DNA from: Octopus vulgaris
Lineage: Eukaryota
Reading direction: 5' to 3'
DNA: 64,000 nt
Assembly: GCA_951406725.2 (NCBI GenBank)
Contig: OX597829.1
Location: 34,596,001-34,660,000 of the forward strand
In this document: one piece after another, positions 38,725 through 62,531 of the stretch
Layout of the letters: each line of letters begins with the position of its first letter
Numbering within the stretch: position 1 is the first letter of the stretch
The notes under the pieces: generated by a model
What the model was told of the DNA's origin: nothing
The model's input: only the letters and a program-made list of their open reading frames with translations
Database searches by the model: none
Position numbers and translations under genes: made by a program

Positions 38725-38764
<40 letters not shown>

Positions 38765-38925
38765 AAAATTAATATAGACAGCAGTGTGCAATGTTTTATC
38801 AAAAAGGAAAACTATACTTGTGACTAGGGTGTTAGAACACCTACATTGCCAGAAATAAGACCTAAAAAGCTCTAATGCTGTTGTTAAAGCACATAATTGT
38901 ATATGATTATGTACTTTGACTACTT

Positions 38926-39811: not shown

Positions 39812-40212
39812 GGCACAGGAGTGGCTGTGTGGTAAGTAGCTTGCTAACCGACCACATGGTTTCGGGTTCAGTCCCACTGCGTGGCATCTTGGGCAAGTGT
39901 CTTCTGCTATAGCCCCAGGCCAACCAATGCCTTGTGAGTGGATTTGGTAGACGGAAACTGAAAGAAGCCTGTCGTATATATGTATATATATGTATGTATG
40001 TGTGTGTGTTTGTGTGTCTGTGTTTGTCCCCCTAGCATTGCTTGACAACCGATGCTGGTGTGTTTACGTCCCCGTCACTTAGCGGTTCGGCAAAAGAGAC
40101 CGATAGAATAAGTACTGGGCTTACAAAGAATAAGTCCCGAGGTCGATTTGCTCGACTAAAGGCGGTGCTCCAGCATGGCCGCAGTCAAATGACTGAAACA
40201 AGTAAAAAGAGA
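39812..40212 (+). mobile_element. Full-length tRNA-derived CORE-like SINE
   Basis: GGCACAGGAGTGGCTGTGTGGTAAG...GGGTTCAGTCCC head and CTTGGGCAAGTGTCTT core. Near-identical to the copy at 15212-15617. Confidence 0.88.
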
Positions 40213-40284
40213 AAATACAAAATTTCCTTATGAGTGTTCATTTTGTAGATTTTGAATACAAGTTGGACACACATATAGGCAATT

Positions 40285-40317
<33 letters not shown>

Positions 40318-41369: not shown

Positions 41370-42330
41370 ATCAGTCTTTGCTTGCTTCTTTCACATCACC
41401 TTGGGTTTCCTTCTTCCACTTATTCCAAATACTTTGGGCACTCTGTATTTCTTTATACAGCTGTCCTCTTATATTCAGTTTTTCTCTCATCTCACTTGTA
41501 TTGTTGTTCATGCAAACATTTTACACTAATAATAGCATGCTTACTTCATTTCTTTCTGGCCTTCATAAATCATCTGTTTCCAGGACCTCTGACTCACCAC
41601 TATGCACCATTGCAGGTCACATAAGAGCATCAAACAGTCTGCTCTTCACTCTGAGATAGAAACCTGTTTCCAGCATATGTAATAACTCACTGACATCTTT
41701 TAATCTGTTCTTACTCAGGCTGCTGTGTTTTCAGAACACTCACCACCTCTGCAATTAGGTCATCTACATAACAGAAGCTATTTACAACTTCTATTGGGGT
41801 ATTTTAGAGAATCTGTTTCATATGTGCTCTTAATGTTCACTATTTTTGTGCATCTGCCACATACAAAGTCTCTTTTCTCCACCAGGCTTCCTGTGATTCC
41901 ACTACAATTCTTGTATGTTCTTAATTTACACTTAGTACACCATATATGGAACTTTTTTTTCTTCTTTTCTGAAAATCTAACATAATCATTTCCTTTATCA
42001 TAGTATTATCCTTTTTTTCTTTTATACTTACTAATTGTTTTAATCTTTGTTATATTTACCCTGAGACCTTATGATTCTAGGTTTTGCATCCTTTACTGCA
42101 ATTCTCTAATTCTGCTACAAATTGAGCTATAAGAGCCAAGTTATTATACAGCAGGTATCACACACAGCTACACTTATACTATTCCATTATGACCTGGAGG
42201 ACTGATAAATATTAATGGCATGAGAACTGAACTTAGTGCACACATACTAGCAAGCTAAATTTCATTGCTGAACTCATTCATATCTCACATCTTGCTAAAT
42301 GCACTTTTGTACTGGGTTAGAAGGGGTACA
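41370..42330 (-). mobile_element. Very old RTE LINE remnant
   Basis: Diverged blocks colinear with the RT C-terminal half of the 48-50 kb element. Confidence 0.5.
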
Positions 42331-42627
42331 TGGCCCACACAAGCCAGTTGTCTACCCGTAGTTTCATTAGCAACATTCAAACTGCAGAGCATAAAATCTA
42401 GTTGAAGCGTTTTCCCAGGCTGACAAATGCTAGTATTTCATCTGCACTTGTCTCACTAACAAGAAAATAGTAGTAACTTCTTTTTGAAATAGAGGTAGCA
42501 TGAAATATTGTCAGTGAACAAGTTGCGGTTTCAAAGCAAAGAAAAATATTTTGACAGAAATTAAATTTAAATGTTGAAGTGAATGTAATGTTTTTTTTTG
42601 TGTTATAAACACTTTCCACACAGCAAT

Positions 42628-42674
<47 letters not shown>

Positions 42675-43025
42675 CATATAAATATTATAGAAAACCAAAA
42701 GACAAAAACAGGTGTATAAACAACAAGCATTTAGTTTGATGGTGGAGAAGGTGAGAAAGCCTTTTAGATTTCAAGCCTATGCTCTTCAACTGAAAGGAAT
42801 GTGACAAAAAACAGAGAGAGAATAAAAAAACTTGTGGGTTTAATGGTCAATCATATATATATGTGTGTATATGTATATATGTGTGTGTCTGTGAGTATAT
42901 ATATGTGTGTATATATATATGTGTGTCTATATGTATATGTGTGTGTATATATATATGTGTGTCTATATGTATATGTGTGTGTATATATATTTGTGTATAT
43001 ATACATATATATATATATTTAAATG

Positions 43026-43058
<33 letters not shown>

Positions 43059-43080
43059 TTGTATATATATGTGTATATAT

Positions 43081-44007
43081 AACCTAAGAAGCATCAGTTG
43101 TGGTGTGCAAGAGAGACGGCTGCGCTGGTATGGTCATGTGACGAGAATGGATGAAGATAGTTGTGTGCAAAAGTGCTACACCCTAGCAGTTGAGGGAACC
43201 TGTGGAAGAGGTAGACCCAGGAAAACCTGGGACGAGGTGGTGAAGCACGACCTTCGAACTTTAGGTCTCACCAAGGAAATGACTAGAGACCGAGACCTAT
43301 GGAAGTATGCTGTGCGTGAGAAGACCCGGCAAGACTAGTGAGGCCATAACCCGTGGCCCCTACCTGGGACGTAGTCAGTCCACCTGTGCATACCTTCCTT
43401 CTTGTGACACTTGTGAAGACCTGTTGAGGCAAGTGAAAATCAAACCAAATCAAAATAGATGAACATCAATGGAATTTGTATCTTGTGGTACCAGTGCCGG
43501 TGGCACATAAGAAAACCATCCGAACATGGCCGTAGCCAGTACCGCATCGACTGGCCTCCGTGGTGTGGGCACGTAACAAACACCATCCGATCGTGGCCAT
43601 TCGCTAGCCTCGTCTGGCACCTGTGTCGGTGGCACATAAAAAAAAACACCATCCAAGCGTGGCCGTTCGCCAGCCTTGTCTGGCACCTGTGTCGGTGGCA
43701 CATAAAAAACACCATCCGAGCGTGGCCGTCTGCCAGCCTCATCTGGCACCTGTGTCGGTGGCACATAAAAAAACACTATCCGAGTGTGGCCGTTCGCCAG
43801 CCTCGTCTGGCACCTGTGTCGGTGGCACATAAAATCACCCACTACACTCTCGGAGTGGTTGGCGTTAGGAAGGGCATCCAGCTGTAGAAACACTGCCAGA
43901 TCTGACTGGCCTGGTGCAGCCTTCGGGCTCCCCAGACCCCAGTTGAACCGTCCGACCCATGCTAGCATGGAAAGCGGATGTTAAACGATGATGATGATAA
44001 TGATGAT
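43081..44007 (+). mobile_element. 5'-truncated RTE LINE (ORF end plus 3' UTR with about 63-bp tandem repeats)
   Basis: [19 protein letters not shown]...GRGRPRKTWDEVVKHDL...RQD*, then 3' UTR repeats and a (GAT)n tail. Microsatellite on both sides. Confidence 0.95.
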
Positions 44008-44020
44008 TTCAGTGTGTATA

Positions 44021-44079
<59 letters not shown>

Positions 44080-47000
44080 ATCATCATCATTATCATCATC
44101 GCTTAATGTCCGCTTTCCATGCTAGCTTGGGTTGGACGATTTGACTGAGGACTGGTGAACCAGATGGCTACACCAGGCTCCAATGTGATCTGGCAGAGTT
44201 CCTACAGCTGGATGCCCTTCCTAACACCAACCACTCCGAGAGTGTAGTGGGTGCATTTACGTGCCACCGGCACGAAGGCCAGTCAGGCAGTACTGGCAAT
44301 GGTCACGTTCAAATGGTGTTTTTTACATACCACCTGCACAGGAGCCAGTCCAGTGGCACTGGCAACGACCTTGCTTGAATGTATTTTCATGTGCAACCTG
44401 CACAAGTGACAGTAAGGCAATGCTGGTAATGATCACGCTCAAATGGTGCTTTTTACGTGCCACTGGCACAGAAGCAAGTTAGCTGCTCTAGCAACGATCA
44501 TGCTCAGATGGTGCTCTTTGCACACCGCTAGCACAGATGCCAGTCATTGAATTTGATTTTGATTTCACTTGCTTTAACAGGTCTTCACAAGCAGAGTTTA
44601 GTGTCCAGCAAAGGAAAGGTATGCATAAGTGGGCTGGTTACACCACTGGCATAGGCCATGGGTTATGGTCTCACTTGGCTTGCCGGGTCTTCTCAAGCAC
44701 AGCATTTTTCCAAAGGTCTCAGTCACTAGTCATTGACTCGATGAGGCCTAATGTTTGAAGGTCATGCTTCACCACTTCATCCCAGGTCTTCCTGGGTCTA
44801 CCTCTTCCACAGGTTCCCTCAACTGCTAAGGTGTGGCATTTTTTACACAGCTATCCTCATCCATTCTCACCACATGACCATACTAGTGCAGTTGTCTCTC
44901 TTGCACACCACAACTGATGCTTCTTAGGTCCAACTTTTCTCTCAAGGTACTTATACTCTGTCGCGTATGCACACTGACATTACACATCCATCAGAGCATA
45001 CTGGCTTCATTCCTTGCGAGCTTACGCATGTCCTCAGCAGTCACGGCCCATGTTTCACTGCCAAGTAGCATGGCTGTTTGTACACATGTATCATACAGTC
45101 TACCTTTTACTCTGAGTGAGAGGCCCTTTGTCACCTGCAGAGTTAAGAGCTCCCTGAACTTTGCCCAGGCTATTCTTATTCTAGCAACTACACTTTCAGT
45201 GTACTCTCCCTTACTACTAACTTGGTCACCTAGGTAATGGAAGCTATCAACTACTTTTAGTTTTTCTCCCTGGAATGTAGCGGAAGTTGTTCTCTGCACA
45301 TTTTCTGTGTTTATTGCTCCTGAGCATCTGCCACCTAGAAAAACCCTCTTCCCAGTTAGACTTCCTTTGATATTGCTGCACCTCTTATGTGTCCATAGCT
45401 TATGCTAGGTACATCTTATAAAGTTTCTACCAATGCCTTTTCTACAGATCGAGCAGGGCCATCTACCTGAAGGGATTTGTGGTTTGCCTGCGAATTAAAA
45501 CTTTGGTTTTAGCTAGGTTGACTCTAGCTACTTATTAAGACTTTGGATTTAGCTAGCTTGACTCTAAGGCCCTTCAATTCTAATCCTTGCTTCCACACCT
45601 GAAACTTCTCCTCTAGTTTTGATAGTGACTCAGCAATTAGAGCAAGGTCATCAGCATAGAGGAGCTCCCAGAGACATCATGTCTTGAATTCCTCTGTTAT
45701 TGCCTGGGGGACTATGATAAATAGGAGGGGGCTGAGGACTGAACCTTGGTGGACCCCTACCTCTACACGGAATTCTCCACTGTACTCATTGCCAATCCTC
45801 ACCTTACTGACAGTATCCCTGTACATGGCTTGCACAGCTCTCACTAACCATTCTTGTATCCCTAGTTTCCTCATTGACCACCAGATAAGGGATCGGGGGA
45901 CCCTGACAAAGGTTTTCTCCATGTCAACGAAAGCCAGGTATAGAGGTTTATCTTTGGCTAGGTATTTCTTCTACAGCTGTCTTACCAGAAATATATTATC
46001 AGTGGTGCTTTTCCCTGGCACGAACGCAAACTGCATGTCATCTAAACTGACTCTCTCCCTAATTCGTTGGGCTATGACCCTCTCTATGACCTTCATTATC
46101 TCATCCAACAACTTGATACCTCTGTAATTATTTGTATCTAAAGCATCACCTTTACCTTTGTAGCAGTTGACTATTATGCTTATTTTTTTATTGCCCACTA
46201 GGGGCTAAACATAGAGGGGACAAACAAGGACATTAAGTCGATTACATCAACCCCAGTGCATAACTGGTACTTAATTTATCGACCCCGAAAGGATGAAAAG
46301 CAAAGTTGACCTCGGCGGAATTTGAACTCAGAACGTAGCGGCAGACGAAATACTGCAAAGCATTTCGCCCGGCGTGCTAACGTTTCTGCCAGCTCGCCGC
46401 CTTATGCTGCTACACCAGTCATTGGGTATGACTCCTTCGTGTATCACCTGGTTAACTATACGGGTGACCAGGCTATAGCCGACACTGCCAGATATTTTGA
46501 GCATCTCTGCAGTGATTCCTGCTTTCCCTTTCTTCATACTTTTAATTACTTTATCTACCAAGGTACTGTCAACTTGGATAGCTGGTCCCTCTGCTGGGTT
46601 GACATTTGGCAGACTCTCTTTCTCCCATTCATTCTCTTTATTGAGCAACCTCTCATAGTGGCATCTCCAAGCCTCTCTCTTTGCAGCCTCGTTTAGTGCA
46701 AGTGAACCATGATCCATGTGGATACCTTTCTCTCCTACCACATCACGATTCTCTCTCACACAATGTCTTGCAACACGAAGTACCTCAAGTCCTTGGCCCT
46801 CACGGCACTTAACATTGGCAAATTTTTTCTTATCTGCTTCCATTCTTATCCTGTCTCCTAGCTTCCCTTCTGGCAGTCTGATTCCCTGCTACCACTGTTC
46901 TTCCAGTCCTTCCAAACCTGTTTCTTTTCTCTAATAGCCCTGTCAACAACATTGTTCCACCACCATGTTACCTTGGGTCGAGAGGGGACTTTGCACCATC

Positions 47001-47373
47001 CACAGATCTGGTCATTGGCCCTCAGCAGGTTGTCCCGTAGAAACCTTCTACATCGTGTGAAGCTATATCCCCTTCTATTTCGTCAAAGGCTTTGAGTAAT
47101 ATGTCTCTAAATCTCTGTCCATTTGCAGGATCTTTAAGCTTCCAAACCCTTCTCCTTCATGCTGGTCATCTTCTAGCCCTGATCCTGAAGTCAGTAACTA
47201 CCAGTCTATGTTGTGGGGTATATTCTTTACCTGGGAAGGTTTTAGCATTTATGAGCAGCCATCTTTCCCTTTTTCTGGTGAGGATGTAGTCAATTTGGTT
47301 AGTGTGTCTACCAGAACGGTAGGTGAGTAGGTGACTGGCAGGTTTCCTGAAGTTAGTATTGCAAACCATTAGA
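44080..47373 (-). mobile_element. 5'-truncated, mutated RTE LINE with nested SINE
   Basis: (CAT)n tail at 44080. ORF pieces 44991..45299, 45677..45922, 45971..46198 and 46328..46843. Breaks off within the APE region at the 47.4 kb microsatellite. Confidence 0.95.
46181..46401 (-). mobile_element. SINE (7073 family) inserted in RTE with 7-bp TSD
   Basis: TSD TTATGCT at 46174-80 and 46402-08. Removing it restores the RTE sequence seen at 49770-49790. Confidence 0.92.
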
Positions 47374-47402
47374 TATGTATGTATATATATATTTATGTAT
47401 AC

Positions 47403-47439
<37 letters not shown>

Positions 47440-47525
47440 CATACACACACATATATATGTGTGTATATATATATATGCATATATGTATATATATGTATGT
47501 ATATATATGTGTGTATATGTATATA

Positions 47526-47580
<55 letters not shown>

Positions 47581-47593
47581 GTATATGTATATG

Positions 47594-47628
<35 letters not shown>

Positions 47629-47707
47629 GCGTATATGTATGTATATATATATATATATATATGTATATGTATATATATATATGTATTTATATATATATAT
47701 ATATATA

Positions 47708-50700
47708 TCATCATCATCATCATCATCATTTAGCGTCCGTTTTCCATGCTAGCATGGGTTGGACGGTTCTGCTGGGGTCTGTGAAGCCAGAAGGCTTCAT
47801 CAGGCCCAGTCAAATCTGGCAGTGTTTCTACGGCTGGATGCCCTTCCTAACGCCAACCACTCCGTGAGTGTAGTGGGTGCTTTTTACGTGCCACCCGCAC
47901 TGGTGCCAGACAGAGCTGGCAAACGGCCACGAACGGATGGTGCTTTTTATGTGCCACCGGCACGAGGGCCAGGCGAGGCTGGCAACGGACACGAAACGGG
48001 GCGGTGCTGGCAACGGTCGCGAAACGGAAAGTTCTCTTACATGCCACCGGCACTGGTAACACATCTGCAATTTCCATTGATCGATTTCGATTCTGATCCT
48101 CACTTGCCTCAATGGGTCTTCACAAGCAGAGTTTCGACATGCCACCGGCACTGGTAGCACATCCGCAATTTCCATTGATCGATTTCGATTCTGATCCTCA
48201 CTTGCCTCAACACGTCTTCACAAGTAGAGTTTTGTGTCCCAAGAAGGGAAGGTATGCATACGTAGGCTGGCTCCATCCCATGTAGAAGGCCACGGGTTGT
48301 GGACTCACTTGTCCTGCCGGGTCTTCTCGCGCACAGCACACTTCCAGAGGTCTCGGTCTCTAGTCATTTCCTCAGTGAGACCTAAAGTTCGAAGGTCGTG
48401 CTTCACCACCTCGTCCCAGGTTTTCCTGGGTCTGCCTCTTCCACAGGTTCCCTCAACCGCTAGGGCGTGGCACTTTTTCACACAACTATCTTCATCCATT
48501 CTCGCCACATGACCATACCAGCGCAAACGTCTCTCTTGCACACCACAACTGATGCTTCTTAGGTCCAGCTTTTCTCTCAAGGTACTTACACTCTGCCGAG
48601 TGTGAGTACTGACATTACACATCCATCGGAGCATACTGGCTTCATTTCTAGCGAGCTTACGCATATCCTCAGCAGTCACGGCCCATGTTTCACTGCCATG
48701 TAGCATGGCTGTTCGTACACACGCATCATACAGTCTGCCTTTCACTCTGTGCGAGAGGCCTTTTGTCACCAGCAGAGGTAAGAGCTCTCTGAACTTTGCC
48801 CAAGCTATTCTTACTCTAGCAGTTACACTTTCAGCACACCCGCCCCCGCTGCTGACTTGGTCACCTAGGTAACGGAAACTATCAACTATTTCTAGTTTTT
48901 CTCCCTGGAAAGTGACAGAAGTTGGTCTCAGAGCATTTTCAGTGTTTATTGTTCCTGAGCATCTGCCACATACAAAAACCATCTTCCTAGTTAGCCTTCC
49001 TTTGACATTGCTGCATCTCTTATGTGTCCATAGCTTACACTTGGTGCATCTTATAGAGTTTCTACCTACACCTTTTCTACAGATCGAGCAGGGCCATCTA
49101 CCTGAAGGTGTTTGTGATTTGTCAACCTTCCTACTGATTACGACTTTGGTTTTAGCTAGATTGACTCTAAGGCCCTTCGATTCTAATCCTTGTTTCCACA
49201 CCTGAAACTTCTCCTCCAGTTCTGATAGCGACTCAGCAATTAGAGCAAGGTCATCAGCATAGAGGAGCTCCCAAGGGCATCCTGTCTTGAATTCCTCCGT
49301 TATTGCCTGGAGGACTATGATAAATAGGAGGGGGCTGAGTACTGAGCCTTGGTGGACCCCTACCTCTACCCGGAATTCTTCACTGTACTCATTTCCAACC
49401 CTCACCCTACTAGCGGCGTCCCTATACATGGCCCGCACAGCTCTCACTAACCATTCATCTATCCCTAGTTTTCTCATTGCCCACCAGATAAGGGATCGGG
49501 GGACCCTGTCGAAGGCTTTCTCCATGTCAACAAAAGCCAGGTACAGGGGCTTATCTTTGGCTAGGTATTTCTCCTGCAGCTGCCTTACCAGGAATATAGC
49601 ATCAGTAGTACTTTTCCCTGGCACAAACCCAAACTGCATCTCATCTAAACTAACTCTCTCTCTAATTAGTTGGGCTATGACCCTCTCTGTAACCTTCATC
49701 ACCTGGTCCAACAGCTTGATACCTCTGTAGTTATTTGTATCTAGGGCATCACCTTTACCTTTGTAGCAGTTGACTATTATACTGCTACACCAGTCATTGG
49801 GTATGACCCCTTTGTGTATCACCTGATTAACTATATGGGTGACTAGGCTATAGCCAACACTACCAGACATTTTGAGCATCTCTGCAGTGATTCCTGATGG
49901 GCCTGGGGCTTTCCCTGTCTTCATGCTTCTAATTGCCTTAGCTACCACAGAACTATCAACTCGGATAGCTGGTCCCTCTGTTGGGTCAACATTCGGCAGA
50001 CTCTCTTTATCCCATTCATTTTCTTCATTCAGCAACCTTTCATAGTGGCATCTCCAAACCTCTCTCTTTGCATCCTCATTTAGCGCAAGTGAACCATCTT
50101 CCATGCGAACACACTTCTCTCCTACCACATCACGATTCTCTCTCACACACTGTCTTGCAACACGAAACACCTCCAGTTTTGGTCCTCACGGCGCAGAGCA
50201 TTGGCAAATTTTTTCTTATCTGCTTCCCCTCTGGCTAAATAAACCTGTCTCCTAGCTTCTCTTTTGGCAGTCTGATACAATTCCCTGCTACCCCCATTTT
50301 TCCAGACCTTCCAAGCCTGTCTCTTTTCTCTAATAGCCCTGTCTACAATGTTGTTCCACCACCACGTTATTCTAGGTCGAGAGGGGACTTTGCACCAGCC
50401 ACAGATCTGGTCAGTGGCTCTCAGCAGGTTGTCCCTTAGAAACGTCCAGCTGTCTTCTACCCCCTGTGATGCTCTATCCCCTTCTACTTCGTCAGAGGCT
50501 TCAAGTAATATGTCCCTAAATCTCTGTCCATTTGCAGGATCTTTAAGCTTCCAGATCCTTCTTCTCCATATTTGTCGTCTTCTGGTTGTCCTCCTAGTCC
50601 TGATCCTAAAGTCACTAACTACCAGTCTATGTTGTGGGGTACATTCTTCACCTGGGAAGGTTTTGGCATTTATAAGCAGCCATCTCTCCCTTTGCCTTGT

Positions 50701-52360
50701 AAGGATGTAGTCAATTTGGCTGGTATGTTGGCCCGATTGGTAAGTGACTAGGTGGCTGGTAGGTTTCCTGAAGTTAGTGTTGCAAATCATAAGATTATTT
50801 GCATCGCAGAACTCCAGCAGCCTGGATCCCTCCTCGTTGCGGGAGCCATAGCCATAGCCTCCATGTACGCCATGGAAGCCCCCAGCATGTCGTCCAACGT
50901 GACCATTGAAGTCACCAGCCACAAAGATAAGGTCTCTGTCGTTCGTCAATGAGGTAGTCTGCAGTAGAGTGTCATAGAATCGGTCTTTCTGTCCATCGGG
51001 TAGCCCCGACTGAGGAGCATAGGCTGATATAATGGTTGCTAAACTATGATGAAGCACTAATCTAATCTTAAGTATTCTGTCACTTACTCTGATTACCTCA
51101 ATTACTTTATCTACCCATTTCTCAGCGATAAGTATACCCACGCCACCAACCCCGTCAGTGTTCCCTGCCCAGAAAATCTTGTACCTGCGTTCCTTGCCTG
51201 TGAGGAACCTAGCTGATCCTCCTCTCCACCTTATTTCTTGCATGCAACATATATCCACACATCTCCGTTCAAGCATCTCGACTATCTCACCAGACCTACC
51301 TTTCAGAGTGCCAACGTTGAGGGTGCCAACCCTGAGGGTGTGGAAGGCATGGGCTCTAGAGACCCTGGGACGGTGGACAGTAGCTTCGTGTACCTGAAAA
51401 GAAAGCTCGCATTTGGCAGAATTCATGTGCAAAAAATGAAGTAGTAAAGTAGCCTTCAGTACAACCTGCATAACGCTAGCCTTTCATATTTTGCACTGTA
51501 TGAACATTACCTTACATAGGTCGAGACTAGGGGTAGGGACGGGTAGGGATGGTGAGAGCATTTGCAGTCTTCATGGGAAGCAACCCCGGAATGGAAGAGA
51601 ATAGGAACTTCCGGCATGCGTGGTGGGGGTGGGAGGGCGGGTGCACCGTAGCTGAGTAAAGGGGTTCTGTTAATCGTGAGCTAGCAAATGGGTTTGTATG
51701 AATCGGGAGACAATACTAAACGAAAAATTGAAAAATCAGAGTGGCTATGAACCTGGAGACAAGTCTAAACGTAAAAAAAAAAAAAAAAAAAAAAAAATGT
51801 TTGAGCTAGACAGGGTAATGAGGGAATACTGAAAGAATGAGGGACAATACAATGAGATGGAAATTGAAGAATAGAGAAAGAATAAGGATAAGTGCAAGAA
51901 AGAAGGTAGTCGTAGCGAGGTTGGACGATTCACTTAACTTTTAGCCATTCATGATCTGTGCGTATTCTTTAGATATTTTGAAGCGAGTGGGGTTAACGAT
52001 AAATGCGATCGCTCCTTTATGTATGGCGATGATGGTTTTGGGGAGGGGGGGGGCATAGAGGACCATGGCGATGATGGTTATGGGAAGGGGGGACATAGCG
52101 AGAGAGAGATAGGGTTAGTTAGAGAGAGAGGTCAAGGGACACGTGACAATAAGCGGTGTGAGGGAATTTGACTGGGGACGGCATTGTCGATAAATAAACA
52201 TTAGATAAATAGGTTTGAAAATCAGAAAAATCAGAGGGAATATCATTATTGATAGCTAATATAACACCGTAGCTGAGTAAAGAGGTTCTGTTAATCGTGA
52301 GCTAGCAAATGGGTTTGTATGAATCGGGAGACAATACTAAACGAAAAATTGAAAAATCAT
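47708..52360 (-). mobile_element. Near-intact, apparently full-length RTE-clade LINE
   Basis: (CAT)n tail, 3' UTR, RT and APE frames, and about 0.9 kb of 5' UTR. The 5' boundary is approximate. Confidence 0.93.
48305..51471 (-). CDS. RTE ORF: AP endonuclease plus reverse transcriptase, one frameshift near 50175
   Basis: APE motifs GTLNVGTL, MQEIRW, AGDFNGH, QIDYIL and QHRLV (50143..51471). RT motifs NYRGIKLL, QFGF, DMEKAFD, HQGSVLSP and YADD (48305..50170). Adding one base gives a single 1055-aa ORF. Confidence 0.93.
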
Positions 52361-52405
52361 ATAAATAAATGAAAGAAAGAATGGAGTTGAACAACGATTT
52401 AGCAA

Positions 52406-52508
52406 AATTCCTTTATTCTCGACATATGTTTCGAAGACTGCATATTCCTAATTCCGAAAGAATAAAGAGTGCATTATGCCGCCTTCTCATCAGGAAAGAC
52501 AAGGAACT
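52406..52508 (-). ncRNA. Type I hammerhead ribozyme motif with intact catalytic core
   Basis: Minus strand AGTTCCTTGTCTTTC-CTGATGA-GAAGGCGGCATA...TATGCAGTCTTC-GAAA-CATATG-TC-GAGAATAAAGGAATT. All three stems can pair, and the GUC cleavage site falls at 52421/52420. Confidence 0.8.
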
Positions 52509-52709
52509 TATGTCAGCATCATGACGAACAAAAACTTCTAGATGACTGCCCACACGGAGTCCAAAGTGATAAAAACACACAAATTTCCACACGAAAGCAC
52601 GTGATCTCTGCCCTTGACATGTAGCTTCAACTGTGTTTTCTGACGTGAATTTGCTACCCGGGTATCGGTTAACCGAATTATCCATACTAGGATAATTCAT
52701 TCAACTACT

Positions 52710-52760
<51 letters not shown>

Positions 52761-52765
<5 letters not shown>

Positions 52766-52950
52766 ATTGAAACAAAGAAGAACAGACAAGGAAAAACAAT
52801 AACACAAGGATGTGGTACAAGTACTGCTCAGGAAAGTAAGGAAAGAGGATTTAACGTTTCGAGTCAAGCTCTTCTTCTGAAATGGAGGAAAGCCCAAAGG
52901 AAGGGAAGACAGAGGAAGAAAATCACCATTGATACACATGCAGTTACATT
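52761..52950 (-). repeat. Penelope pLTR-like dispersed repeat with degenerate hammerhead core
   Basis: Homologous to 58675-58870 and 63673-63880. Minus strand CAGAAGA-AGAGC-TTG-ACTC-GAAACGTT. Confidence 0.6.
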
Positions 52951-53239
52951 TTGAAATGACCGGAAGGGAATGTGTGAAGAAAAAGTTTTTCCTAAGACAG
53001 GAGAGAGCAAGAGAAGGAGATATGTGTGTGTGCATGCAGGTTTGTGTGTGTGTGTGTAATAAAAGCATTTGTATGTGTTTGTGTGTTACTTTGGCTGTTT
53101 ATATGTGCGTGACAGTGGACTTTGTGTCACTTAATTTCTTAGAAAGAATTTACAGTGGGAATTTTAGGTAGGAGTGGTTGTCTTTTGTGTGTCTCCCTTC
53201 TCATGTGCATAGGAGAATAAGTAGAAAGGTGTTTAACTG

Positions 53240-53956
53240 GTTGTTTGAAGTGTGTGCACGTGTATGCATATGTTGTGTGTGTGTGTGTCTGTGTGTGTGT
53301 ACGTGTATGCATGGGGTTGTGTCTGGAGCGAATGTGTGTTATTCTATGTGTGCATGTATGTATGTGTGTGTATGTCCATGTATCTGTAATTGTGTATGTA
53401 TGAGTGTGAGTTGTGTGTGTGCAGGCGGTATGTGTAGGTTCATTTGCGTATGTATGTGTGCACGCGTGTATTTTATGTGTGCATGTGTGAACAAGGGGTT
53501 GTGTGTGGAGTTTGTTTTTTGCATGTGTATGCATAGGTGCATGTATGTGTGCGTGTATATGTATCTGGGTGTGTGTATGTATGTATGTGGGGTTGTGAGT
53601 GTTATGTGTGCATTTGGGTGCATGTGTGTGTATGTTGAATGTACATGTGTGTATATATGTGTGCTTGTGTGTATGTATATATTGTGTGTATATGTGTGTG
53701 TATGTGAGCTTCTGTATGCGTGTATACATGGGTTGTGTGTGGGGTATATGTGCATTCCTGTGTGTGTGTGTGTGTGTATGCATGTGAGTCCTTATGTATG
53801 TATGTGATTATGTCCATGTGTATGTAATTGTGTGTGGGAAGTATGTATGCATACATGTGCGAGTGTGTGTATGTATGTGTGCGTGTGTATGTACATGTGT
53901 GTATGTGCATGTGTGTGTATATGTATGTGTGTGTGTGTATGTGTGCATGTATGTGT
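53240..53956. repeat. Degenerate (GT/ATGT)n low-complexity tract
   Basis: Alternating purine-pyrimidine sequence that generates spurious Cys/Val/His/Thr ORFs. Confidence 0.9.
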
Positions 53957-54083
53957 ATCATCATCATCGTTTAACGGCCGTTCTCCATGCTAGTATGGGT
54001 TGGACGGTTCGCCCGGGGATCTGGGAAGCCAGAAGGCTGCACCAGGCTCCAGTCTTATCTGGCAATGTTTCTACAGCTGGATG
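53957..54083 (-). mobile_element. RTE 3' tip
   Basis: (CAT)n-CGTTTAACG...CCATGCTAG...CTACAGCTGGATG. Confidence 0.85.
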
Positions 54084-54118
54084 TATATATATATAATGAA
54101 TATGTATATATATACATA

Positions 54119-54954
54119 CTAGCAGAATTGCCCGGCGTTGCTCGGGGCTGAATTGCTTGAAAGTACTGTTAATGATTGCACTGAATTATGATGATTATTC
54201 AGGCAAATATTGATATAAGTTTACGGTGGGAGATAAGAACTTAACAATAAAACGTGTGCCATTGCATTGTTTTGGGGGAACCAAATTTCTGATGAGCATT
54301 AAACTTTAAGTTTGAGAAAGTGTGGTGGTAGTCCGGGGTGCTCAAAGGAATTGAGTACCTCTATTGGATAGTTGATGACGTCCTCTGTGTCAGGAGTTGT
54401 ATCGATAGACTGATATACATAGACTTCCCCAGGAATGAGTTTTAGCATTTCATCATAAATATGGTGAACAGTTTTATTCCTCGGGGCCAGTATAGCCTTT
54501 TTGCCAATCCAATCCATATTCTGATAATTAGCTTGTAGATCTGGGAACACTGCATCTCTGAGATCAGAAGGCGTCTTAACAATGGTACAAATGGAATCGA
54601 TGGCAATATTACCATTTTCATCCCCTGGTATTTTGCCATCGCCAAGTGCAAGGAGGGTGTGAGGAAATGCTGCTGATGTGATATTACGTCGCATATGAGC
54701 ACGCATATTGGTGTGAAGTTTGAGAGTTACTTCCCTTTATTTAAAAAAATATGCATTAAAATGGAAAAAATGATGGTAAATTATTTGTAAAATCATAGAC
54801 TCTTCGTAGACGCGCGCTAATACCCAGAAGGGCTCGATATGAATCACGACTATAAGATACCCTGTTTTGGTTAAACTGCATTGCAAAATGTGGGAGTAGT
54901 TAGGAATCTAAATCGGAGTAGACAGACACACAACCTTTCTTTTATATATAAATA
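54119..54954 (-). mobile_element. Internally deleted Helitron carrying a PIF1-like helicase fragment
   Basis: 3' CTAG and hairpin at 54119-54147. ORF 54299..54706 (LLALGDG, AILAPRN, YQSID, LNSFEHPGLPPHFLKLKV). The 5' 220 bp are homologous to 38004 and 57797. Confidence 0.92.
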
Positions 54955-56684
54955 TTTTCGTCCTAAAAAACTTTGTTTGGATTGAATGGTTACCTCTATG
55001 GAAATATATACACGCACATTATACATACATGTGTGTATAGATGAATATATAAATACATTTAAATATCTATATACACTTTTGGGCGATCTTTCTTTTTCTT
55101 AGAGATAACTTTAGATCTTATTTTCGTCCTAAAAAACTTTGTATGGAGTGAATGGTTACCTCTATGGAAATATATACACACACGTTATACATACATGTGT
55201 GCATAGATGAATATATAAATACATTTAAATATCTATATACACTTTTGGGCGATCTTTCTGCTACTTGTATATACTTTAGATCTTATATTCGTCCTAAAAA
55301 ACTTTGTATGGAGTGAAAGGTTACCGCTATGGAAATATATACACACACATTATACATACATCTGTGTATAGATGAATATATAAATACATTTAAATATCTA
55401 TATACACTTTTGGGCGATCTTTCTGCTACTTGGATATAGGTCTTATATTCGTCGTAAAAAACTTTCCTGTCACACACTCACGCACACGCACACACACACA
55501 CACACACACACGCACGCATCCTCACACACACACACATGCACACGCACACACACTCACACACATACGTTAGCTTACAATTTTATTTATATATTTGCGTGTC
55601 TATGTGTGTAAAGAGGGAGTGGGAATGTAGAGTGAAAAAGTCACTCACTACAGAAAGTGAATTACTTTCACTTTATTCATTGCACACTGTGTGTGTGCGT
55701 TTGCGTGTGCTGTATCCCACACTAAGGGAAGCATTTGACTCATACACCACAATGTGAGTTTTCTCTAAATTTTGCTTAATTGAGGTTGAAATTTTAAAAA
55801 GTGGACCTGGCACGACCCGATGCATTCTACTCTTAAAAATGCTAGGTAAATTGTAATTGAAGAAATCCTATATTGTAGATTTCTATAAGATACAAAGGGA
55901 GGCAGATAAAATCTGCCTTTTATAATAAGAGATGTGTGCATAGATGAATATATAAATACATTTAAATATCTATATACACTTTTGGGCGATCTTTCTGCTA
56001 CTTGTATATACTTTAGATCTTATATTCGTCCTAAAAAACTTTGTATGGAGTGAAAGGTTACCGCTATGGAAATATATACACACACATTATACATACATCT
56101 GTGTATAGATGAATATATAAATACATTTAAATATCTATATACACTTTTGGGCGATCTTTCTGCTACTTGGATATAGGTCTTATATTCGTCGTAAAAAACT
56201 TTCCTGTCACACACTCACGCACACACACACACACGCATCCTCACACACACACACACATGCACACACACACACACATGCATACACACACACACACACACTC
56301 ACACACACGCACACACACACGTTAGCTTACAATTTTATTTATATATTTGCGTGTCTGTGTGTAAAGAGGAAGTGGGAATGTAGAGTGAAAGAGTCACTCA
56401 CTACAGAAAGTGAATTACTTTCACTTTATTCGTTGCACACTGTGTGTGTGCGTTTGCGTGTGCTGTATCCCACACTAAGAGAAGCATTTGACTCATACAC
56501 CACAATGTGAGTTTTCTCTAAATTTTGCTTAATTGGGGTTGAAATTTTAAAAGTGGACCTGGCACGACCCGATGCATTCTACTCTTAAAAATGCTAGGTA
56601 AATTGTAATTGAAGAAATCCTATATTGTAGATTTCTATAAGATACAAAGGGAGGCAGATAAAATCTGCCTTTTATAATAAGAGA
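54955..56684. repeat. About 166-bp tandem subrepeats plus an about 737-bp tandem duplication containing Helitron-like 5' ends (-)
   Basis: TTCGTCCTAAAAAACTTTG recurs at about 54957, 55123 and 55288. Identical ORFs 55283..55477 and 56020..56214 are offset by 737 bp. Both large units end ...TTTTATAATAAGAGA. Confidence 0.88.
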
Positions 56685-57080
56685 TCTCTTATTATAAAAG
56701 GCAGATTTTATCTGCCTCCCTTTGGGAGTTATACAAATCTACAATATAGGATTTCTTCAATTACAATTTACCTAGCATTTTGAGAGTACAATGCATCGCG
56801 TCATGCCAGGTCCAGTTTTTAAAATTTAAACTCCAATTAAGCAAAATTTACAGAAAACTCACATTCTGGTGTGTGTGTCAAATGCTTTTCTTAGTCTGGT
56901 TTACACCACACGCAAACGCACACACACAGTGGGCAACGAATAAAATGAAAGTAAATAGCGACAGAGTGATTTGAGGAAGACTAAAGTGAAAGTATTCTGT
57001 CTATGACGCTGATAGATACATGAGTAAAATGTATGGGGAGCTAAGAGTGAGTGAAAATGTTCTTGGAAGAGAGTAATTAG
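56685..57080 (+). mobile_element. Helitron-like 5' portion, head-to-head with the minus copy
   Basis: Begins TCTCTTATTATAAAAGGCAGATTTTATCTGCC and is the reverse complement of about 56390-56684. No 3' CTAG end was seen. Confidence 0.6.
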
Positions 57081-57327
57081 TAATAAAGTAAACATACACT
57101 CATACATACATACATACATACATACATACATACATACATACATACATACATACATACACACACACATACATACACATACATACATACATACATATACATA
57201 CATACATACACACATACACACACACACAGTATTGAAGCTTGAGAACAATCAGATACATTTGCAACACATCTGTTGAAAATATTATTGTTCACACACATAC
57301 ATATACATATATACATACAGACAGATA

Positions 57328-57361
<34 letters not shown>

Positions 57362-57409
57362 ATCCAGCATGGCCACAACCTCAAGGCTGAAACATATAAA
57401 AGAATAACA

Positions 57410-57780
57410 GAATATAAATGTGTGCAAAGTACAAGAAATATTAATGCAGTATATGGGGATTGGACAATAAGCGTAAGGCAGTGTCAATGGTGGTTCCAGA
57501 AATCCCGAGCCATAAACTACAGCCTAGAAGACGAGCCTCATCCTGAAAGATCTGTAGAACTCGACAAGGACATCCTGAAAACCCTGGTGGAACAAAATAT
57601 CATCGTAACTGTTGAGGAACTAGCAGAGAAGCTTGGATTTGGTCATTCAACCATTCATTGACACCTGTGTGCTATCGGAAAAGTCAGCAAATTGGGTCAA
57701 TGGGTTCCTCACGAACTTTCTGAGTCTAATTGCATGCAGAGAGTGAATGTATGCTTTTCTTTGCTGTCATATCTCACCAC
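57410..57780 (+). mobile_element. Mariner transposase N-terminal fragment
   Basis: RNINAVYG..CQWWFQK..LEDEPH..ELAEKLG..*HL..GKVSKLGQWVPHELS (WVPHEL motif). Confidence 0.85.
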
Positions 57781-57796
57781 TACTGCGCTATGTATA

Positions 57797-58433
57797 TCTA
57801 TATATATAAAACTGTAGTTGTGTGAGTGTCTGTCCCCTTCGATTTAGATTCCTAACTACTCCCACATTTTGCGGTACAGTTTAACCAAATTCGGGTAGCT
57901 TATAGTCGTGATTCATATCGAGCCCGTCTGAATATTAGCGCGCGTCTACGATGAGTCTACGATTTTAAAAATAATTTAACATCATTTTTTATTCCATTTT
58001 AATGCATAATTTTTCGTGTGTCAATGGCGGCGGAGTTGGCGTCCACGCTCACACCTGCACCTGTGGGGAAGGGAGTGTAAGGAAATCAACGTCGTAATGC
58101 GTTGTCAAGGAGACCAGTGTTCTTTTAGAACAACGACTTCATGGCTTGAAGACACCAAAACAGAAATGGCTAAGAAAGCGTCTACATGAGTCTATGATTT
58201 AAAAAAAAATTTACCATCGTTTTTTTTCCGTTTTAATGCATTTTTTCGCTATTATATAAGGGAAGTAACTCTCTAAAAATGTCTACGATGAGTCAACGAT
58301 TTAAAAAAAAATTTACCATCATATTTTTTCCATTTTTAATGCATTTTTTGCTATTTTTTGGCTATAACTCTCTAAAAATGCTTATATAGTTATTTCCCTT
58401 ACAAACCCGAGCAACGCCGGGCGATACTGCTAG
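57797..58433 (+). mobile_element. Non-autonomous Helitron (637 bp)
   Basis: 5' TC, hairpin CCCGAGCAACGCCGGG, 3' CTAG and A|T insertion site. Same ends as 38004-38404 plus an extra internal segment. Confidence 0.92.
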
Positions 58434-58674
58434 TATATATATAAATACAAAATAAGAAAATGGAGGGATAGATTTCTTTCAATCATCAACTTCCAGATAA
58501 TACCAATTCATATAATTTATTAACTAATTATTTAGATTAAATAGGAACATCCAAATCCAACAGAATAAGACAGAATAAAATATATATATATGTATATATA
58601 TATATATGTATATATTTATATGTATTTATATGTATATATATGTATATGTATATATATGTGTGTATATATATATA

Positions 58675-58870
58675 AAGTTAATCCAAACAAGAAAGCACAA
58701 AAAAACACAACGCGAAGACGTGGAACAAATATAGTATTATTGGACGCTCAGGAAAGAAGGAGGGTTTAACGTTTCAAGCAGAGCTATTCATCGGAAACAT
58801 AGGAGAAAGAAAGATCCAGAGAAGGGAAGACAGCAGAAAAAAAATCGCCAACGGTACACATGCGGTCACA
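58675..58870 (-). repeat. Penelope pLTR-like repeat with degenerate hammerhead core
   Basis: Minus strand GTTT-CCGATGA-ATAGC-TCT-GCTT-GAAACGTT-AAAC (58764-58798). Embedded in a TA microsatellite. Confidence 0.6.
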
Positions 58871-59164
58871 TATATATATATATATATGTATATATATATG
58901 TATATATATGTATGTATATATGTATGTATATATGTATGTATATATGTATATATATATGTATGTATATATGTATGTATATATGTATATATATATGTATATA
59001 TATATGTATATATATATGTATATATATATGTATATATATGTATGTATATATGTATGTATATATGTATGTATATATGTATGTATATATGTATGTATATATG
59101 TATGTATATATGTATGTATATATGTATGTATATATGTATATATATATGTATGTATATATGTATA

Positions 59165-59567
59165 TCATCATCATCATCATCATCATCATCATTTAGCGTC
59201 CGTTTTCCATGCTAGCATGGGTTGGACGGTTCAACTGGGGTCTGGGGAGCCCGAAGGCTGCACCAGGCCAGTCAGATCTGGCAGTGTTTCTACAGCTGGA
59301 TGCCCTTCCTAACGCCAACCACTCCGAGAGTGTAGTGGGTGATTTTATGTGCCACCGACACAGGTGCCAGACGAGGCTGGCGAACGGCCACGCTCGGATG
59401 GTGTTTTTATGTGCCACCGACACAGGTGCCAGACGAGGCTGGCAGACGGCCACGCTCGGATGGTGTTTTTATGTGCCACCGACACAGGTGCCAGATGAGG
59501 CTGGCAGGTGCCAGACGAGGCTGGCAGACGGCCACGCTCGGATGGTGTTTTTATGTGCCACCGACAC
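59165..59567 (-). mobile_element. RTE 3' UTR fragment with about 62-bp repeats inside a TA/TATG microsatellite
   Basis: Nearly identical reverse complement of 43620-44000. Confidence 0.92.
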
Positions 59568-60246
59568 ATATATGTATATATATATGTATATATATATGTA
59601 TATATATATGTATATATATATGTATATATGTATGTATATATGTATATATATATGTATATATATATGTATGTATATATGTATATATATATGTATGTATATA
59701 TGTATATATATATGTATATATATATGTATGTATATATGTATATATATATGTATGTATATATGTATATATATATGTATGTATATATGTATATATATATGTA
59801 TGTATATATGTATATATATATGTATGTATATATGTATATATATATGTATGTATATATGTATATATATATGTATGTATATATGTATATATATATGTATGTA
59901 TATATGTATGTATATATGTATATATATATGTATGTATATATGTATATATATATGTATGTATATATGTATATATGTATGTATATATATACATGTGTATATA
60001 TATACATGTGTATATATGTATGTATATATGTATATATGTATGTATATATATACATGTGTATATATATATACATGTGTATATATATATGTATATATATACA
60101 TGTGTATATATACATGTGTATATATACATGTGTATATATACATGTATATATACATGTATATATATACATGTGTATATATATACATGTGTATATATATACA
60201 TGTGTATATATATATGTGTGTATATATATATGTGTGTGTATATATG

Positions 60247-60300
<54 letters not shown>

Positions 60301-60365
60301 CAGATGAATATGTATATATATATAAATATGTATGTGTGTATATATCTATAGATGTGTGTGTGTAA
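59568..60365. repeat. Compound (TA)/(TATG)/(GA) microsatellite; similar tracts at 10300-10910, 42860-43080, 47375-47708 and 58870-59165
   Basis: Direct inspection. Confidence 0.97.
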
Positions 60366-60606
60366 TAACAAAGGGTAAAATTAATTAAGAAGTAATCAAT
60401 AATTTCACCAAGTAGAATTCGGCATGAAAAAGGACCATTTCACGGTAAACTTAAGTAATACTTAATAATTAGGGTTCAGCAAAGATTTGCTTTATCACAT
60501 ACCAAAGTTTAGAAATAGCAGCCAAAAAACCTTAGCTATTTCTTCTACTCTAAAAAGGGACACCCAGAAAAACTAAAATACTGTGTGTGTATATATAAAT
60601 ATATAA

Positions 60607-61461
60607 CACGCAAATAGTGAGCGGTGTTCCGCGAGGCACTGTTTTGGGACCACTACTGTTCATAATGGCCCTCTCAGACATGCCCTCAGCCACGCAGAGA
60701 ACCACGATCACAAGTTATGCAGATGATACAAAAGTTTCACAGGCAATACAGAACCCTGAAGACACTAAGCACCTGCAATGTGAGCTGGACAAAATATACA
60801 ATTGGACTGAAAAGAATAGCATGCAGTTCAATGCTGAAAAGTTTCAAGCTTTATGCTATCAGCATGCAATACCCAATAAATACACTGGACCTGGAGGGAT
60901 TGCAATCCCAGAGGCACAATCAGTACGAGACTTGGGTATTTACATGAGTGATGATGCAACCTTTCATGTGCATGTTGCTAAATTGGCAATGAAATGTAGG
61001 CAGCTGACCGGATGGATTCTTAGAACCTTTAGAATAAGAGACCAGGAAACCATGATGGTCCTCTGGAGGACACTTGTCCTAAGCCACTTTGACTATTGCT
61101 CTCAGCTATGGTCACCATCCAGTGTCAAGTTAATCACAGAACTTGAGGCGATCCAACGAAGCTACACAAAGAAGATAGCCTCTGTGCAGCATATAAGCTA
61201 CTGGGAAAGACTCAAGAGATTAAGACTCTATTCCTTAGAGCGTAGGCAAGAAAGATATGCCATAATATACATCTGGAAGATCCTAGAAGGACTTGTCCCA
61301 AACTTTGGCATCGAGAGTTACACAAATGCTAGAACTGGGCGCCACTGCAAGGTGCCAAGGACTCCAAATTTGCCATCAAGATGTAGGACAAGATACTGTG
61401 ATAACCTGGGCTTCAGAGGCCCACAGCTCTTCAATATCCTCCCAAAGAACCTGAGAGACCT
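60607..61461 (+). mobile_element. CR1/L2-type LINE RT C-terminal fragment, uninterrupted frame
   Basis: SGVPRGTVLGPLLF, YADDTK, MQFNAEK, DYCSQLWSP and LYSLERRQERY (ORF 60617..61501). Confidence 0.92.
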
Positions 61462-61540
61462 GGTTCACCAGACCTCAGTGAAATCATCCAACCCATGCTA
61501 GCATGGAAAGCGGACGTTAAATGATGATGATGATGATGAT
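61459..61540 (+). mobile_element. RTE 3' tip with (GAT)n tail fused to the CR1 fragment
   Basis: CTGGTTCACCAGACCTCAG...CCATGCTAGCATGGAAAGCGGACGTTAAATGATGATG matches the 3' end of the 44080 RTE. Confidence 0.85.
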
Positions 61541-61650
61541 ACACACACACACACGTACATACATGTATATACATCTATAAACACACACACACACACATAT
61601 ATATATATGCATCATTTCATAATCATCATTTAAAGTTTGCCTTCCATGCT

Positions 61651-61686
<36 letters not shown>

Positions 61687-62531
61687 CATAAGACAAGAGG
61701 TAGCACAGAAAAGTTTAAACATTTAAACACAAGCATTGTACAATCTGCCTTTCAATTCGAGGGAGATGATAATAGAACTCTGAGCATTTTCCAACCAGTT
61801 CTCACCTTAGCAACTGTACTTCCAGTGCAACCATTTCTCACTTTGATAATGGAAACTATTCACTAATCCAAGTGAGTCAGTAGGCTGTTTAAAAGAATCT
61901 ATTTCTGGCATGATCTTCCATTGTAGAAAGGATTATTTTGATTATTATTATTATGTTGATCATGATAGAAATTGCTATTTTGATTATAAAGAACCATGAT
62001 GTATATTTTTAAATCACCCACTCTCACTCCATCTCTCGTTTTTTCTTTTTCTCTTTCACTTTTCATCGACCTCACTTTTTGACTCGTATGTCCTATCCAT
62101 CCCTATTTCTGTTCATTCTCTCTGTTCCTTTGATTTGTCTAGAAACAATCTCCCGTGCAATAGCCATCAAGAGGTACCAATCCAAGAACACTCAGTTTCT
62201 GTCATTGATCAAGGACCAGGTTATTGATGTGAAGAGTAAAGGAGGTGGGCGCGTCCCCTACCTTTGGGGTGGTGAGGTATGTATATATATATATATTTGT
62301 ATGTGTGTATATGTGTACATAATAATTTTCATGGTCTTGAATCATTAATCTCTACGCATTTTTCTTTTCGTTGTTTTTGCATTGTCTCTCCTTTTTTCTC
62401 CCTCTTAATTCTTCCTGTAAAAAAGCATAAACTCAAAACTTTAAACACTTTTCAATTCTTCCTGAGTGTTAAACTTGTTGTTCCTATAGCTGTCTTTGTC
62501 TTTTGTTTCTATAAATTTGAACTGTACATTA

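What the first reader, a model, noticed from the sequence alone, without database searches (positions are those of the whole stretch)
52406..52508. Canonical hammerhead ribozyme directly upstream of, and co-oriented with, a near-intact RTE LINE
Seen: on the minus strand every core nucleotide is present: CUGAUGA (52493-52487), a G-C first pair of stem II, GAAA (52432-52429) and GUC with C17 at 52421. Stem I is 4 bp, a 3x3 internal loop and 8 bp. Stem II is unusually long (54 nt, GAAGGC.GCAUA/UAUGC.GUCUUC). Stem III is the palindrome ACAUAUGU. Established: type I hammerheads with short palindromic stem III occur in Penelope-like elements and retrozymes, while LINE 5' ribozymes described so far are mostly HDV-like. 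Inference: either this is a Penelope/retrozyme-type unit (about 52360-52708) next to which the RTE landed, or read-through RNA is self-cleaved about 60 nt before the RTE 5' UTR and so supplies a defined LINE transcript end. It is antisense to the TANGO1-like pre-mRNA, so it would not cut the host transcript.
Basis: partly seen in the sequence, partly recalled or inferred. Interest (0 to 1): 0.8.

Follow-up and report, generated by a model that had tools for sequence, protein, structure and literature searches.

The report
Hammerhead repeat beside an octopus LINE
A predicted self-cutting RNA motif (a hammerhead ribozyme) lies inside a very common 350-base octopus repeat, likely a non-coding offshoot of Penelope-type jumping genes, and the neighbouring LINE most likely just landed in that repeat's tail, so the pairing looks ordinary.

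Summary
The hammerhead is real: every core base and stems I-III are at the stated places, and 1 of 600 shuffles gave any comparable motif. It does not appear to belong to the RTE. Public contigs laid on 50900-52712 show 52364-52712 as a separate high-copy repeat: summed depth is 9-83 times that of the RTE's 5' leader and steps up 4-60-fold at about 52364, and other copies run from 52375 into TA microsatellite. The cut lies 949 nt before the RTE start codon. It would leave the catalytic core on the upstream piece, so a LINE could not inherit it. Co-orientation is common here: 6 of 8 RTE-related loci in this TANGO1 intron are antisense, and three decayed copies of a second hammerhead repeat are too. 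Best reading: a solo Penelope-pLTR or retrozyme-type unit into whose TA tail an RTE inserted. No Penelope partner was found, cleavage is untested, and a minor chimeric RTE subfamily is not excluded. The 54-nt stem II is the one unusual feature.

The parts
52405..52509 (-). Type I hammerhead motif: core CUGAUGA 52493-52487, 54-nt stem II 52486-52433, GAAA 52432-52429, palindromic stem III 52429-52422, predicted cut between C52421 and G52420
52361..52712 (-). Repeat B: non-coding unit of about 350 bp that carries the hammerhead near its 3' end, followed by AATAAA (52417-52412) and a 45-60 nt tail. High-copy in all three organisms laid. Its 5' limit in the family is not known.
   Evidence: depth step and loose ends, summarised; no protein match
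52710..52761 (.). (TA)26 tract between repeat A and repeat B
52762..52950 (-). Repeat A copy 1: a second, unrelated short repeat with a decayed minimal hammerhead (CAGAAGA-A-GAGC...CUC-GAAACGUU from 52879). Other copies at 58623-58871 and 63649-63878.
51644..52359 (-). Segment C: 621-bp unit plus a 95-bp direct repeat (52265-52359 = 51644-51738, 99%). Multi-copy, but less deep than B (4- to 45-fold); probably the outer 5' leader of this RTE subfamily, or a separate repeat.
47707..51643 (-). RTE-type LINE: leader 51643-51472, ORF from ATG 51471 to 48305 (APE, RT, PHD-like finger) with one frameshift near 50178, 3' UTR, (GAT)7 tail running into a TA-rich microsatellite
29238..62280 (+). Host TANGO1 gene: exon 1 29238-29606, intron 1 of about 32.5 kb holding all of the above, exon 2 about 62142-62280

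Best explanation
The hammerhead sits near the 3' end of a high-copy, non-coding repeat of about 350 bp (B, 52361-52712) that is likely a solo pseudo-LTR or retrozyme-type offshoot of a Penelope-like element, and the RTE most likely inserted into B's TA-rich tail. Shown: the motif; B's abundance and its boundary at about 52364-52375; the TA microsatellite behind other B copies; the RTE's anatomy. Inferred: B was spread by a Penelope-type enzyme that favours AT-rich or (TA)n sites; in tandem source copies two hammerheads would pair through the ACAUAUGU palindrome and cut the multimeric RNA into units; this single, slightly decayed copy would cut poorly or only with help. The RTE family here also ends in microsatellites, so the elements form a chain (A-(TA)n-B-C/RTE-(GAT)n(TA)n). 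The shared orientation likely reflects the general excess of antisense insertions in this intron.
For: Median summed contig depth, B against the RTE's unique leader: 19.6, 18.7, 83, 8.9 in runs X1, X4, X8, X5; B against segment C: 4.2, 32, 45, 8.4; step across 52364: 11.5, 59, 60, 3.9. Loose ends at 52375 continue into TA microsatellite (4 contigs each in X1 and X8). In X5 the depth of bin 52303-52363 (27.3) is fully explained by one contig that stops at 52350, so no X5 contig bridges B and C. The cut would leave the whole core on the 5' product and only 60 nt of B on the 3' product. Cofold of two copies gives the double hammerhead as its minimum-energy structure (-58.2 kcal/mol), while the monomer's best fold mispairs the core (-26.5 against -23.2). 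Of 6 listed variants at stem positions in other copies, 4 strengthen a pair (52402, 52418, 52459, 52466). A second hammerhead-bearing repeat occurs three times in the window, all minus strand and next to TA/CA microsatellite. 7 of 9 RTE-tail matches run into TA/CA microsatellite. 6 of 8 RTE-related loci in intron 1 are antisense (plus this copy). Dispersed single hammerheads from truncated PLEs, long helix II and palindromic helix III are described in PMC4209133. The geometry 'hammerhead, short tail, AT-rich target' is described for an anole PLE in PMC11167929.
Against: No Penelope RT or GIY-YIG was found: 0 of 94 window ORFs scanned (94 of the 121 listed, plus the two RTE pieces) matched such a family, and B's longest frame has no homolog, so the PLE link rests on anatomy and literature. 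No tandem B was seen. Contig depth is not a copy number (tool caveat), and only 24 of 1168 loose-end rows and 40 of 179 variant rows were shown. Two of the 6 stem variants weaken a pair (52407, 52468), and none is a two-sided compensation. Depth across B does not fall steadily towards its 5' end, as simple 5' truncation would predict. No target-site duplication can be read in the TA-rich flanks. A rare B-C junction could hide under B's depth in the three larger runs.
Confidence: 0.78

Rival explanations
1. An RTE subfamily has captured B as its 5' head (promoter plus hammerhead), so B-C-RTE moves as one chimeric element.
For: B's end and C's start are 15 nt apart and co-oriented; B-C-RTE as a whole is flanked by TA tracts on both sides. 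C is about as deep as the RTE's unique leader in 3 of 4 runs (0.6, 1.8, 1.1), so a junction at that depth would be invisible under B. Ribozymes at RTE 5' ends are known (HDV-like, PMC6765202; twister in Perere-3, PMC8501958).
Against: Cleavage would cut the core and everything upstream off the LINE transcript, whereas in Perere-3 the ribozyme stays with the element and the duplication abuts the cut. No X5 contig covers 52351-52363 (contigs show presence, not absence). The other RTE copy that reaches the APE region has no CUGANGA in the 2 kb upstream, though it is only 72% alike and truncated.
Confidence: 0.06
2. Locus-level effect only: RNA read through from B or upstream is cut at 52420 and gives this one RTE copy a defined, uncapped 5' end, without the trait being inherited.
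For: The core is intact while the three A copies are decayed. A 2-bp stem III with a tetraloop allows some monomer cleavage in other animals (22% in 1 h for an axolotl motif; PMC7229834). RTEs are described as transcribed from outside promoters (PMC6765202).
Against: Predicted monomer population of the active fold is about 0.001 (nearest-neighbour model, no tertiary contacts). No second intact core lies within 64 kb. The RTE ORF is frameshifted, and 15 ATGs lie in the 949-nt leader. In an anole PLE the hammerhead needed the element's protein, and no RNA-seq ends were found at the site (PMC11167929).
Confidence: 0.08
3. B is a hammerhead-bearing SINE with its own Pol III promoter (as in schistosomes), mobilised by a LINE rather than a Penelope-like element.
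For: Dispersed, short and very abundant; depth is high in its 5' part too (52608-52712). SINE-like hammerhead repeats are known (PMC6765202).
Against: No tRNA gene in the window. One-mismatch A-box-like and B-box-like hits do not form a spaced pair at B's 5' end. B lacks the RTE 3' tail and (GAT)n end that the RTE-related short repeats here share.
Confidence: 0.08

Closest known systems
Hammerheads in pseudo-LTRs of metazoan Penelope-like elements (Cervera and de la Pena 2014, PMC4209133; parts 1-2 of 4 read)
   Same: Type I topology, G10.1-C11.1, palindromic short helix III predicted to work as a dimer, longer than usual helix II, mostly single dispersed copies
   Different: Helix II here is 54 nt with four helical segments, against 6-8 bp there; no extra base between positions 9 and 10.1; no PLE ORF found beside it
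Animal non-LTR retrozymes (PMC7229834, passages; Li, Clavereau and Pollet 2026, 10.64898/2026.07.22.740005, part 1 of 5 and passages)
   Same: Non-coding unit of about 350 bp (mussel: 350-390 bp) with one type I hammerhead, low GC, high copy number; solo monomers are described
   Different: No tandem array or circular RNA shown here; other copies end in TA microsatellite
5' ribozymes of LINEs: HDV-like in R2, L1Tc, RTE, Baggins (PMC6765202, passages) and twister variants of the RTE Perere-3 (PMC8501958, passages)
   Same: Self-cleaving motif upstream of and co-oriented with an APE-RT ORF
   Different: In Perere-3 the ribozyme stays on the element, about 112-147 nt before the AUG, with the duplication at the cut. 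Here the core is 5' of the cut, 949 nt before the ATG, in a separate more abundant repeat.
Rfam RF00163 Hammerhead_1
   Same: All core positions and the GAAAC-n4-GUC stem III align
   Different: 19.9 bits, below the gathering score of 34, because 50 nt of stem II fall outside the model

Membership tests
Type I hammerhead ribozyme | CUGANGA, GAAA and UH core with helices I-III, helix I open | tested here: met
Type I hammerhead ribozyme | Rfam RF00163 gathering score | tested here: not met
   19.9 of 34 bits; the long stem II is unmodelled
Type I hammerhead ribozyme | Self-cleavage 3' of C17 | not testable with these tools
   needs an in vitro assay or end mapping
Type I hammerhead ribozyme | Loop 1-loop 2 tertiary contact | not tested
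   a 3x3 loop in stem I and a 1x1 loop in stem II exist; no contact was modelled
PLE pseudo-LTR | Hammerhead with palindromic helix III near the unit's 3' end, AT-rich or (TA)n target | tested here: met
PLE pseudo-LTR | Flanks or is homologous to an RT/GIY-YIG ORF | tested here: inconclusive
   none in the window; no genome held; no related loci in three collection scans
Non-LTR retrozyme | Non-coding unit of 170-400 bp with one type I hammerhead, many copies | tested here: met
   about 350 bp, no protein match, high depth; the size range is partly recalled, 230-390 bp seen
Non-LTR retrozyme | Head-to-tail arrays | tested here: inconclusive
   single copy in the window; no wrap-around joint among the 15 of 46 joints shown
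Non-LTR retrozyme | Monomeric circular RNA | not testable with these tools
   only contigs were available; no run on record as RNA
LINE 5'-processing ribozyme (R2/L1Tc/RTE/Perere-3 type) | Ribozyme body stays on the element side of the cut | tested here: not met
   the core lies 5' of the cut
LINE 5'-processing ribozyme (R2/L1Tc/RTE/Perere-3 type) | Occurs with the LINE 5' end, at similar abundance | tested here: not met
   9- to 83-fold deeper than the RTE leader; other copies end in microsatellite
LINE 5'-processing ribozyme (R2/L1Tc/RTE/Perere-3 type) | Target-site duplication next to the cut | tested here: inconclusive
   the RTE's 3' flank is TA microsatellite and shares nothing distinctive with the cut's flank
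RTE-clade LINE | Single APE-RT ORF and short tandem-repeat 3' tail | tested here: met
   Pfam APE and RT; relatives are single ORFs of about 1050 aa; (GAT)7 tail
RTE-clade LINE | RT phylogeny within RTE | not tested
   no named reference set was available; the clade label is from architecture and recall

The most novel reading that the evidence does not exclude
An octopus RTE subfamily has adopted a Penelope-derived promoter-plus-hammerhead cassette as its 5' head, the first LINE known to use a hammerhead, with a 54-nt stem II acting as a regulatory or protein-binding arm.
Probability: 0.06. Interest if true: 0.7.

Novelty: new member of a known kind. Interest (0 to 1): 0.27.

Why it matters
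As it stands, this adds an abundant octopus family to the known hammerhead-bearing Penelope/retrozyme repeats. Its long stem II makes it invisible to Rfam at the curated threshold, so such families are probably under-counted in cephalopod annotations, and it gives a concrete RNA to test for self-cleavage and circles. It also shows why a ribozyme next to a LINE in a microsatellite-rich genome is weak evidence of a link. If the chimeric reading were true, it would be a new route by which LINEs gain 5' processing.

Tried and rejected
No listed run is on record as RNA: no RNA holder listed, no evidence on expression either way. Two exact-pattern scans of metagenome contigs and one of viral contigs found nothing. 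Rfam found nothing at gathering score in the window, only microsatellite-driven miRNA matches and one lncRNA match on 51500-53500, and no HDV-like or twister match on 51300-52380. A home-made HDV-like descriptor found 0 hits in 52400-51300, but also 0 in 57 background tiles and had no positive control, so it is uninformative. B's 95-aa frame had 32 candidates, none scoring. No target-site duplication could be read. Look-ups of earlier notes by sequence, by place and by the long word list were empty. PMC5785218 is not held. An alternative pairing of stem II's inner arm with the 3' strand of stem I was noticed by eye, but it is not in the predicted folds and was dropped.

Full report
1. The observation. 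The minus strand reads CUGAUGA at 52493-52487, a 54-nt stem II (52486-52433), GAAA at 52432-52429, the palindrome ACAUAUGU (52429-52422) and C17 at 52421. Stem I has 4 bp, a 3x3 internal loop and 9 further possible pairs. Stem II folds on its own into four stacked helices (-14.3 kcal/mol; 3 of 200 shuffles as stable). A hammerhead descriptor found only this site in the window; 1 of 600 dinucleotide shuffles gave a relaxed hit and 0 of 600 a hit as good. Rfam's Hammerhead_1 aligns with the core matched but scores 19.9 against a gathering score of 34, and it is missed in larger scans. The 116-nt region overall is not more stable than its shuffles (z -1.24). As a monomer the best fold mispairs the core (-26.5 against -23.2 kcal/mol; predicted share of the active fold about 0.001), while two copies fold best as the double hammerhead through the palindrome (-58.2). 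These are nearest-neighbour predictions; no cleavage was tested.

2. The setting. A peptide at 29349-29606 is 100% identical to a protein named TANGO1 of Octopus sinensis. Its exons 1 and 2 map on + at 29238-29606 and about 62142-62280, so the motif is antisense in a 32.5-kb intron. The LINE has APE and RT domains in two frames, split by a 1-nt loss near 50178, relatives of about 1050 aa in one ORF and a (GAT)7 tail. I call it RTE-type from this architecture; no tree was built. Its first ATG is at 51471, 949 nt after the predicted cut, with 15 ATGs between. Between them lies segment C (51644-52359), a 621-bp unit with a 95-bp direct repeat.

3. Does the hammerhead belong to the RTE? No genome is held, so I laid contigs of 4 of the 24 listed public runs (X1, X4, X8, X5; three organisms) on 50900-52712 at 82% likeness. 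The tool warns that summed contig depth is no copy number, so I use only the contrasts. Segment B (52364-52712) is about as deep as the RTE ORF. It is 19.6, 18.7, 83 and 8.9 times deeper than the RTE's unique leader (51449-51692), and 4.2, 32, 45 and 8.4 times deeper than C; depth rises 11.5, 59, 60 and 3.9-fold across 52364. Contigs that leave B at 52375 continue into TA microsatellite (4 each in X1 and X8; 24 of 1168 loose-end rows were shown). In X5 the bin 52303-52363 is fully accounted for by one contig ending at 52350, so none bridges B and C there; contigs show presence, not absence. Among the 40 of 179 variant rows shown, none falls in the core. Six fall on stem positions: four strengthen a pair (52402, 52418, 52459, 52466) and two weaken one (52407, 52468); all are one-sided. 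At 52402 and 52459 nearly all depth in the three larger runs carries the other base, so this copy is a slightly decayed member of the family.

4. Topology argues the same way. The cut leaves CUGAUGA, stem II, GAAA and stem III on the upstream product and only 60 nt of B on the downstream one. A LINE copied from that RNA would lose the ribozyme in one round. In the RTE Perere-3 the twister stays on the element, 112-147 nt before the AUG, with the target-site duplication at the cut (PMC8501958, passages). HDV-like ribozymes of R2, L1Tc, RTE and Baggins are reviewed in PMC6765202 (passages); that their body lies 3' of the cut is recalled knowledge. A type I hammerhead is inherited in tandem or circular units, where it sits at the unit's 3' end.

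5. Adjacency and orientation are common here. A second, unrelated repeat with a decayed minimal hammerhead occurs three times, all on the minus strand and next to TA/CA microsatellite; one copy lies directly upstream of B across a (TA)26 tract. 7 of 9 matches to the RTE tail run into TA/CA microsatellite. 6 of 8 RTE-related loci in intron 1, this one included, are antisense. B's own tail is cut short where C begins, and TA microsatellite resumes after the RTE's (GAT)7, as expected if C-RTE inserted into B's tail. A target-site duplication cannot be read in such flanks, so the order of insertion is inferred.

6. What B is. It is non-coding as far as tested: 0 of 94 window ORFs scanned (of 121 listed) matched a Penelope-type family, and its 95-aa frame found no homolog. 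There is no tRNA gene, no spaced Pol III box pair at its 5' end and no RTE tail. Its anatomy matches PLE pseudo-LTRs and animal retrozymes. PMC4209133 (parts 1-2 of 4 read) describes mostly single dispersed motifs with long helix II and palindromic helix III that cleave weakly and as dimers. PMC7229834 (passages) describes 350-390 bp mussel units. The 2026 preprint 10.64898/2026.07.22.740005 (part 1 of 5 and passages) derives retrozymes from pLTRs and counts solo monomers. 10.1101/2021.04.23.441226 (passages) notes (TA)n targeting by some PLE clades. PMC11167929 (passages and part of the main text) places the element's end about 90 nt after the cut, at AT-rich targets, and finds the hammerhead protein-assisted and dispensable for insertion in vitro. 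PLEs and RTEs are both recently active in O. vulgaris (PMC13282606, passages). The octopus RTE of PMC9115989 (passages) has UTRs of about 600 nt, and the paper does not mention ribozymes. The giant squid genome paper counts 235 Hammerhead_1 matches (PMC6962438, passages). The PLE partner of B was not found, so membership stays open; three collection scans were empty.

7. Novelty. Six literature searches (the top 10-20 listings of each seen) showed no description of this octopus family and no LINE with a 5' hammerhead. I read no supplements, and repeat databases such as Repbase or Dfam were not available; the family may be listed there. Earlier AI notes on other genomes report a repeat copied into TA microsatellites in the PLE pattern (e1-7810660) and LINEs that captured foreign 5' heads (e1-7807616, e1-7940754). 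I did not check them; they only keep the chimeric reading from being dismissed. Verdict: a real hammerhead motif in a new member of a known kind of repeat, next to an RTE most likely by shared target preference. The 54-nt stem II is the one feature a specialist might want to test. Interest 0.27.

Noticed in passing
window 52762-52950, 58623-58871, 63649-63878 (all minus): Three copies of a second short repeat with a minimal hammerhead (shared pattern CUGANGA-A-GAGC-loop-GCUC-GAAACGUU), each with a different core or stem lesion and each next to TA/CA microsatellite. It matches the PLE minimal-hammerhead features of PMC4209133.
   Followed up: partly
window 51644-52359: A 621-bp unit plus a 99% identical 95-bp repeat, with internal sub-repeats and an A25 tract. 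About 4.7 times deeper than the RTE leader in run X1 but 0.6-1.8 times in the other three runs. Possibly tandem 5' monomers of the RTE subfamily, or a satellite.
   Followed up: partly
window 48305-50185 (minus), residues 366-409 of P0002: A PHD-like finger sits after the RT domain (E 3e-4, below Pfam's cut-off) and is annotated in many relatives at 49-75% identity.
   Followed up: no
run X4, loose end at 52438: Ten contigs of a diverged B subfamily keep the apical AUUCC/GGAAU hairpin of stem II with a different loop and flank, a hint that the long stem II is conserved.
   Followed up: no
window 54103-54900 (minus): Helitron-like 3' end (hairpin then CTAG at about 54120) behind a helicase-like reading frame; the label is by eye and recall, and Pfam gave no match.
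   Followed up: no
window 133-585, 1577-2365, 57329-57658, 60599-61498 (plus): DDE_1 and mariner-type transposase remnants and another RT fragment.
   Followed up: no
window 29955-30303 and 36126-36475; 15220-15617 and 39819-40215: Two pairs of 97% identical repeats of 350-400 bp (the first direct, the second inverted).
   Followed up: no
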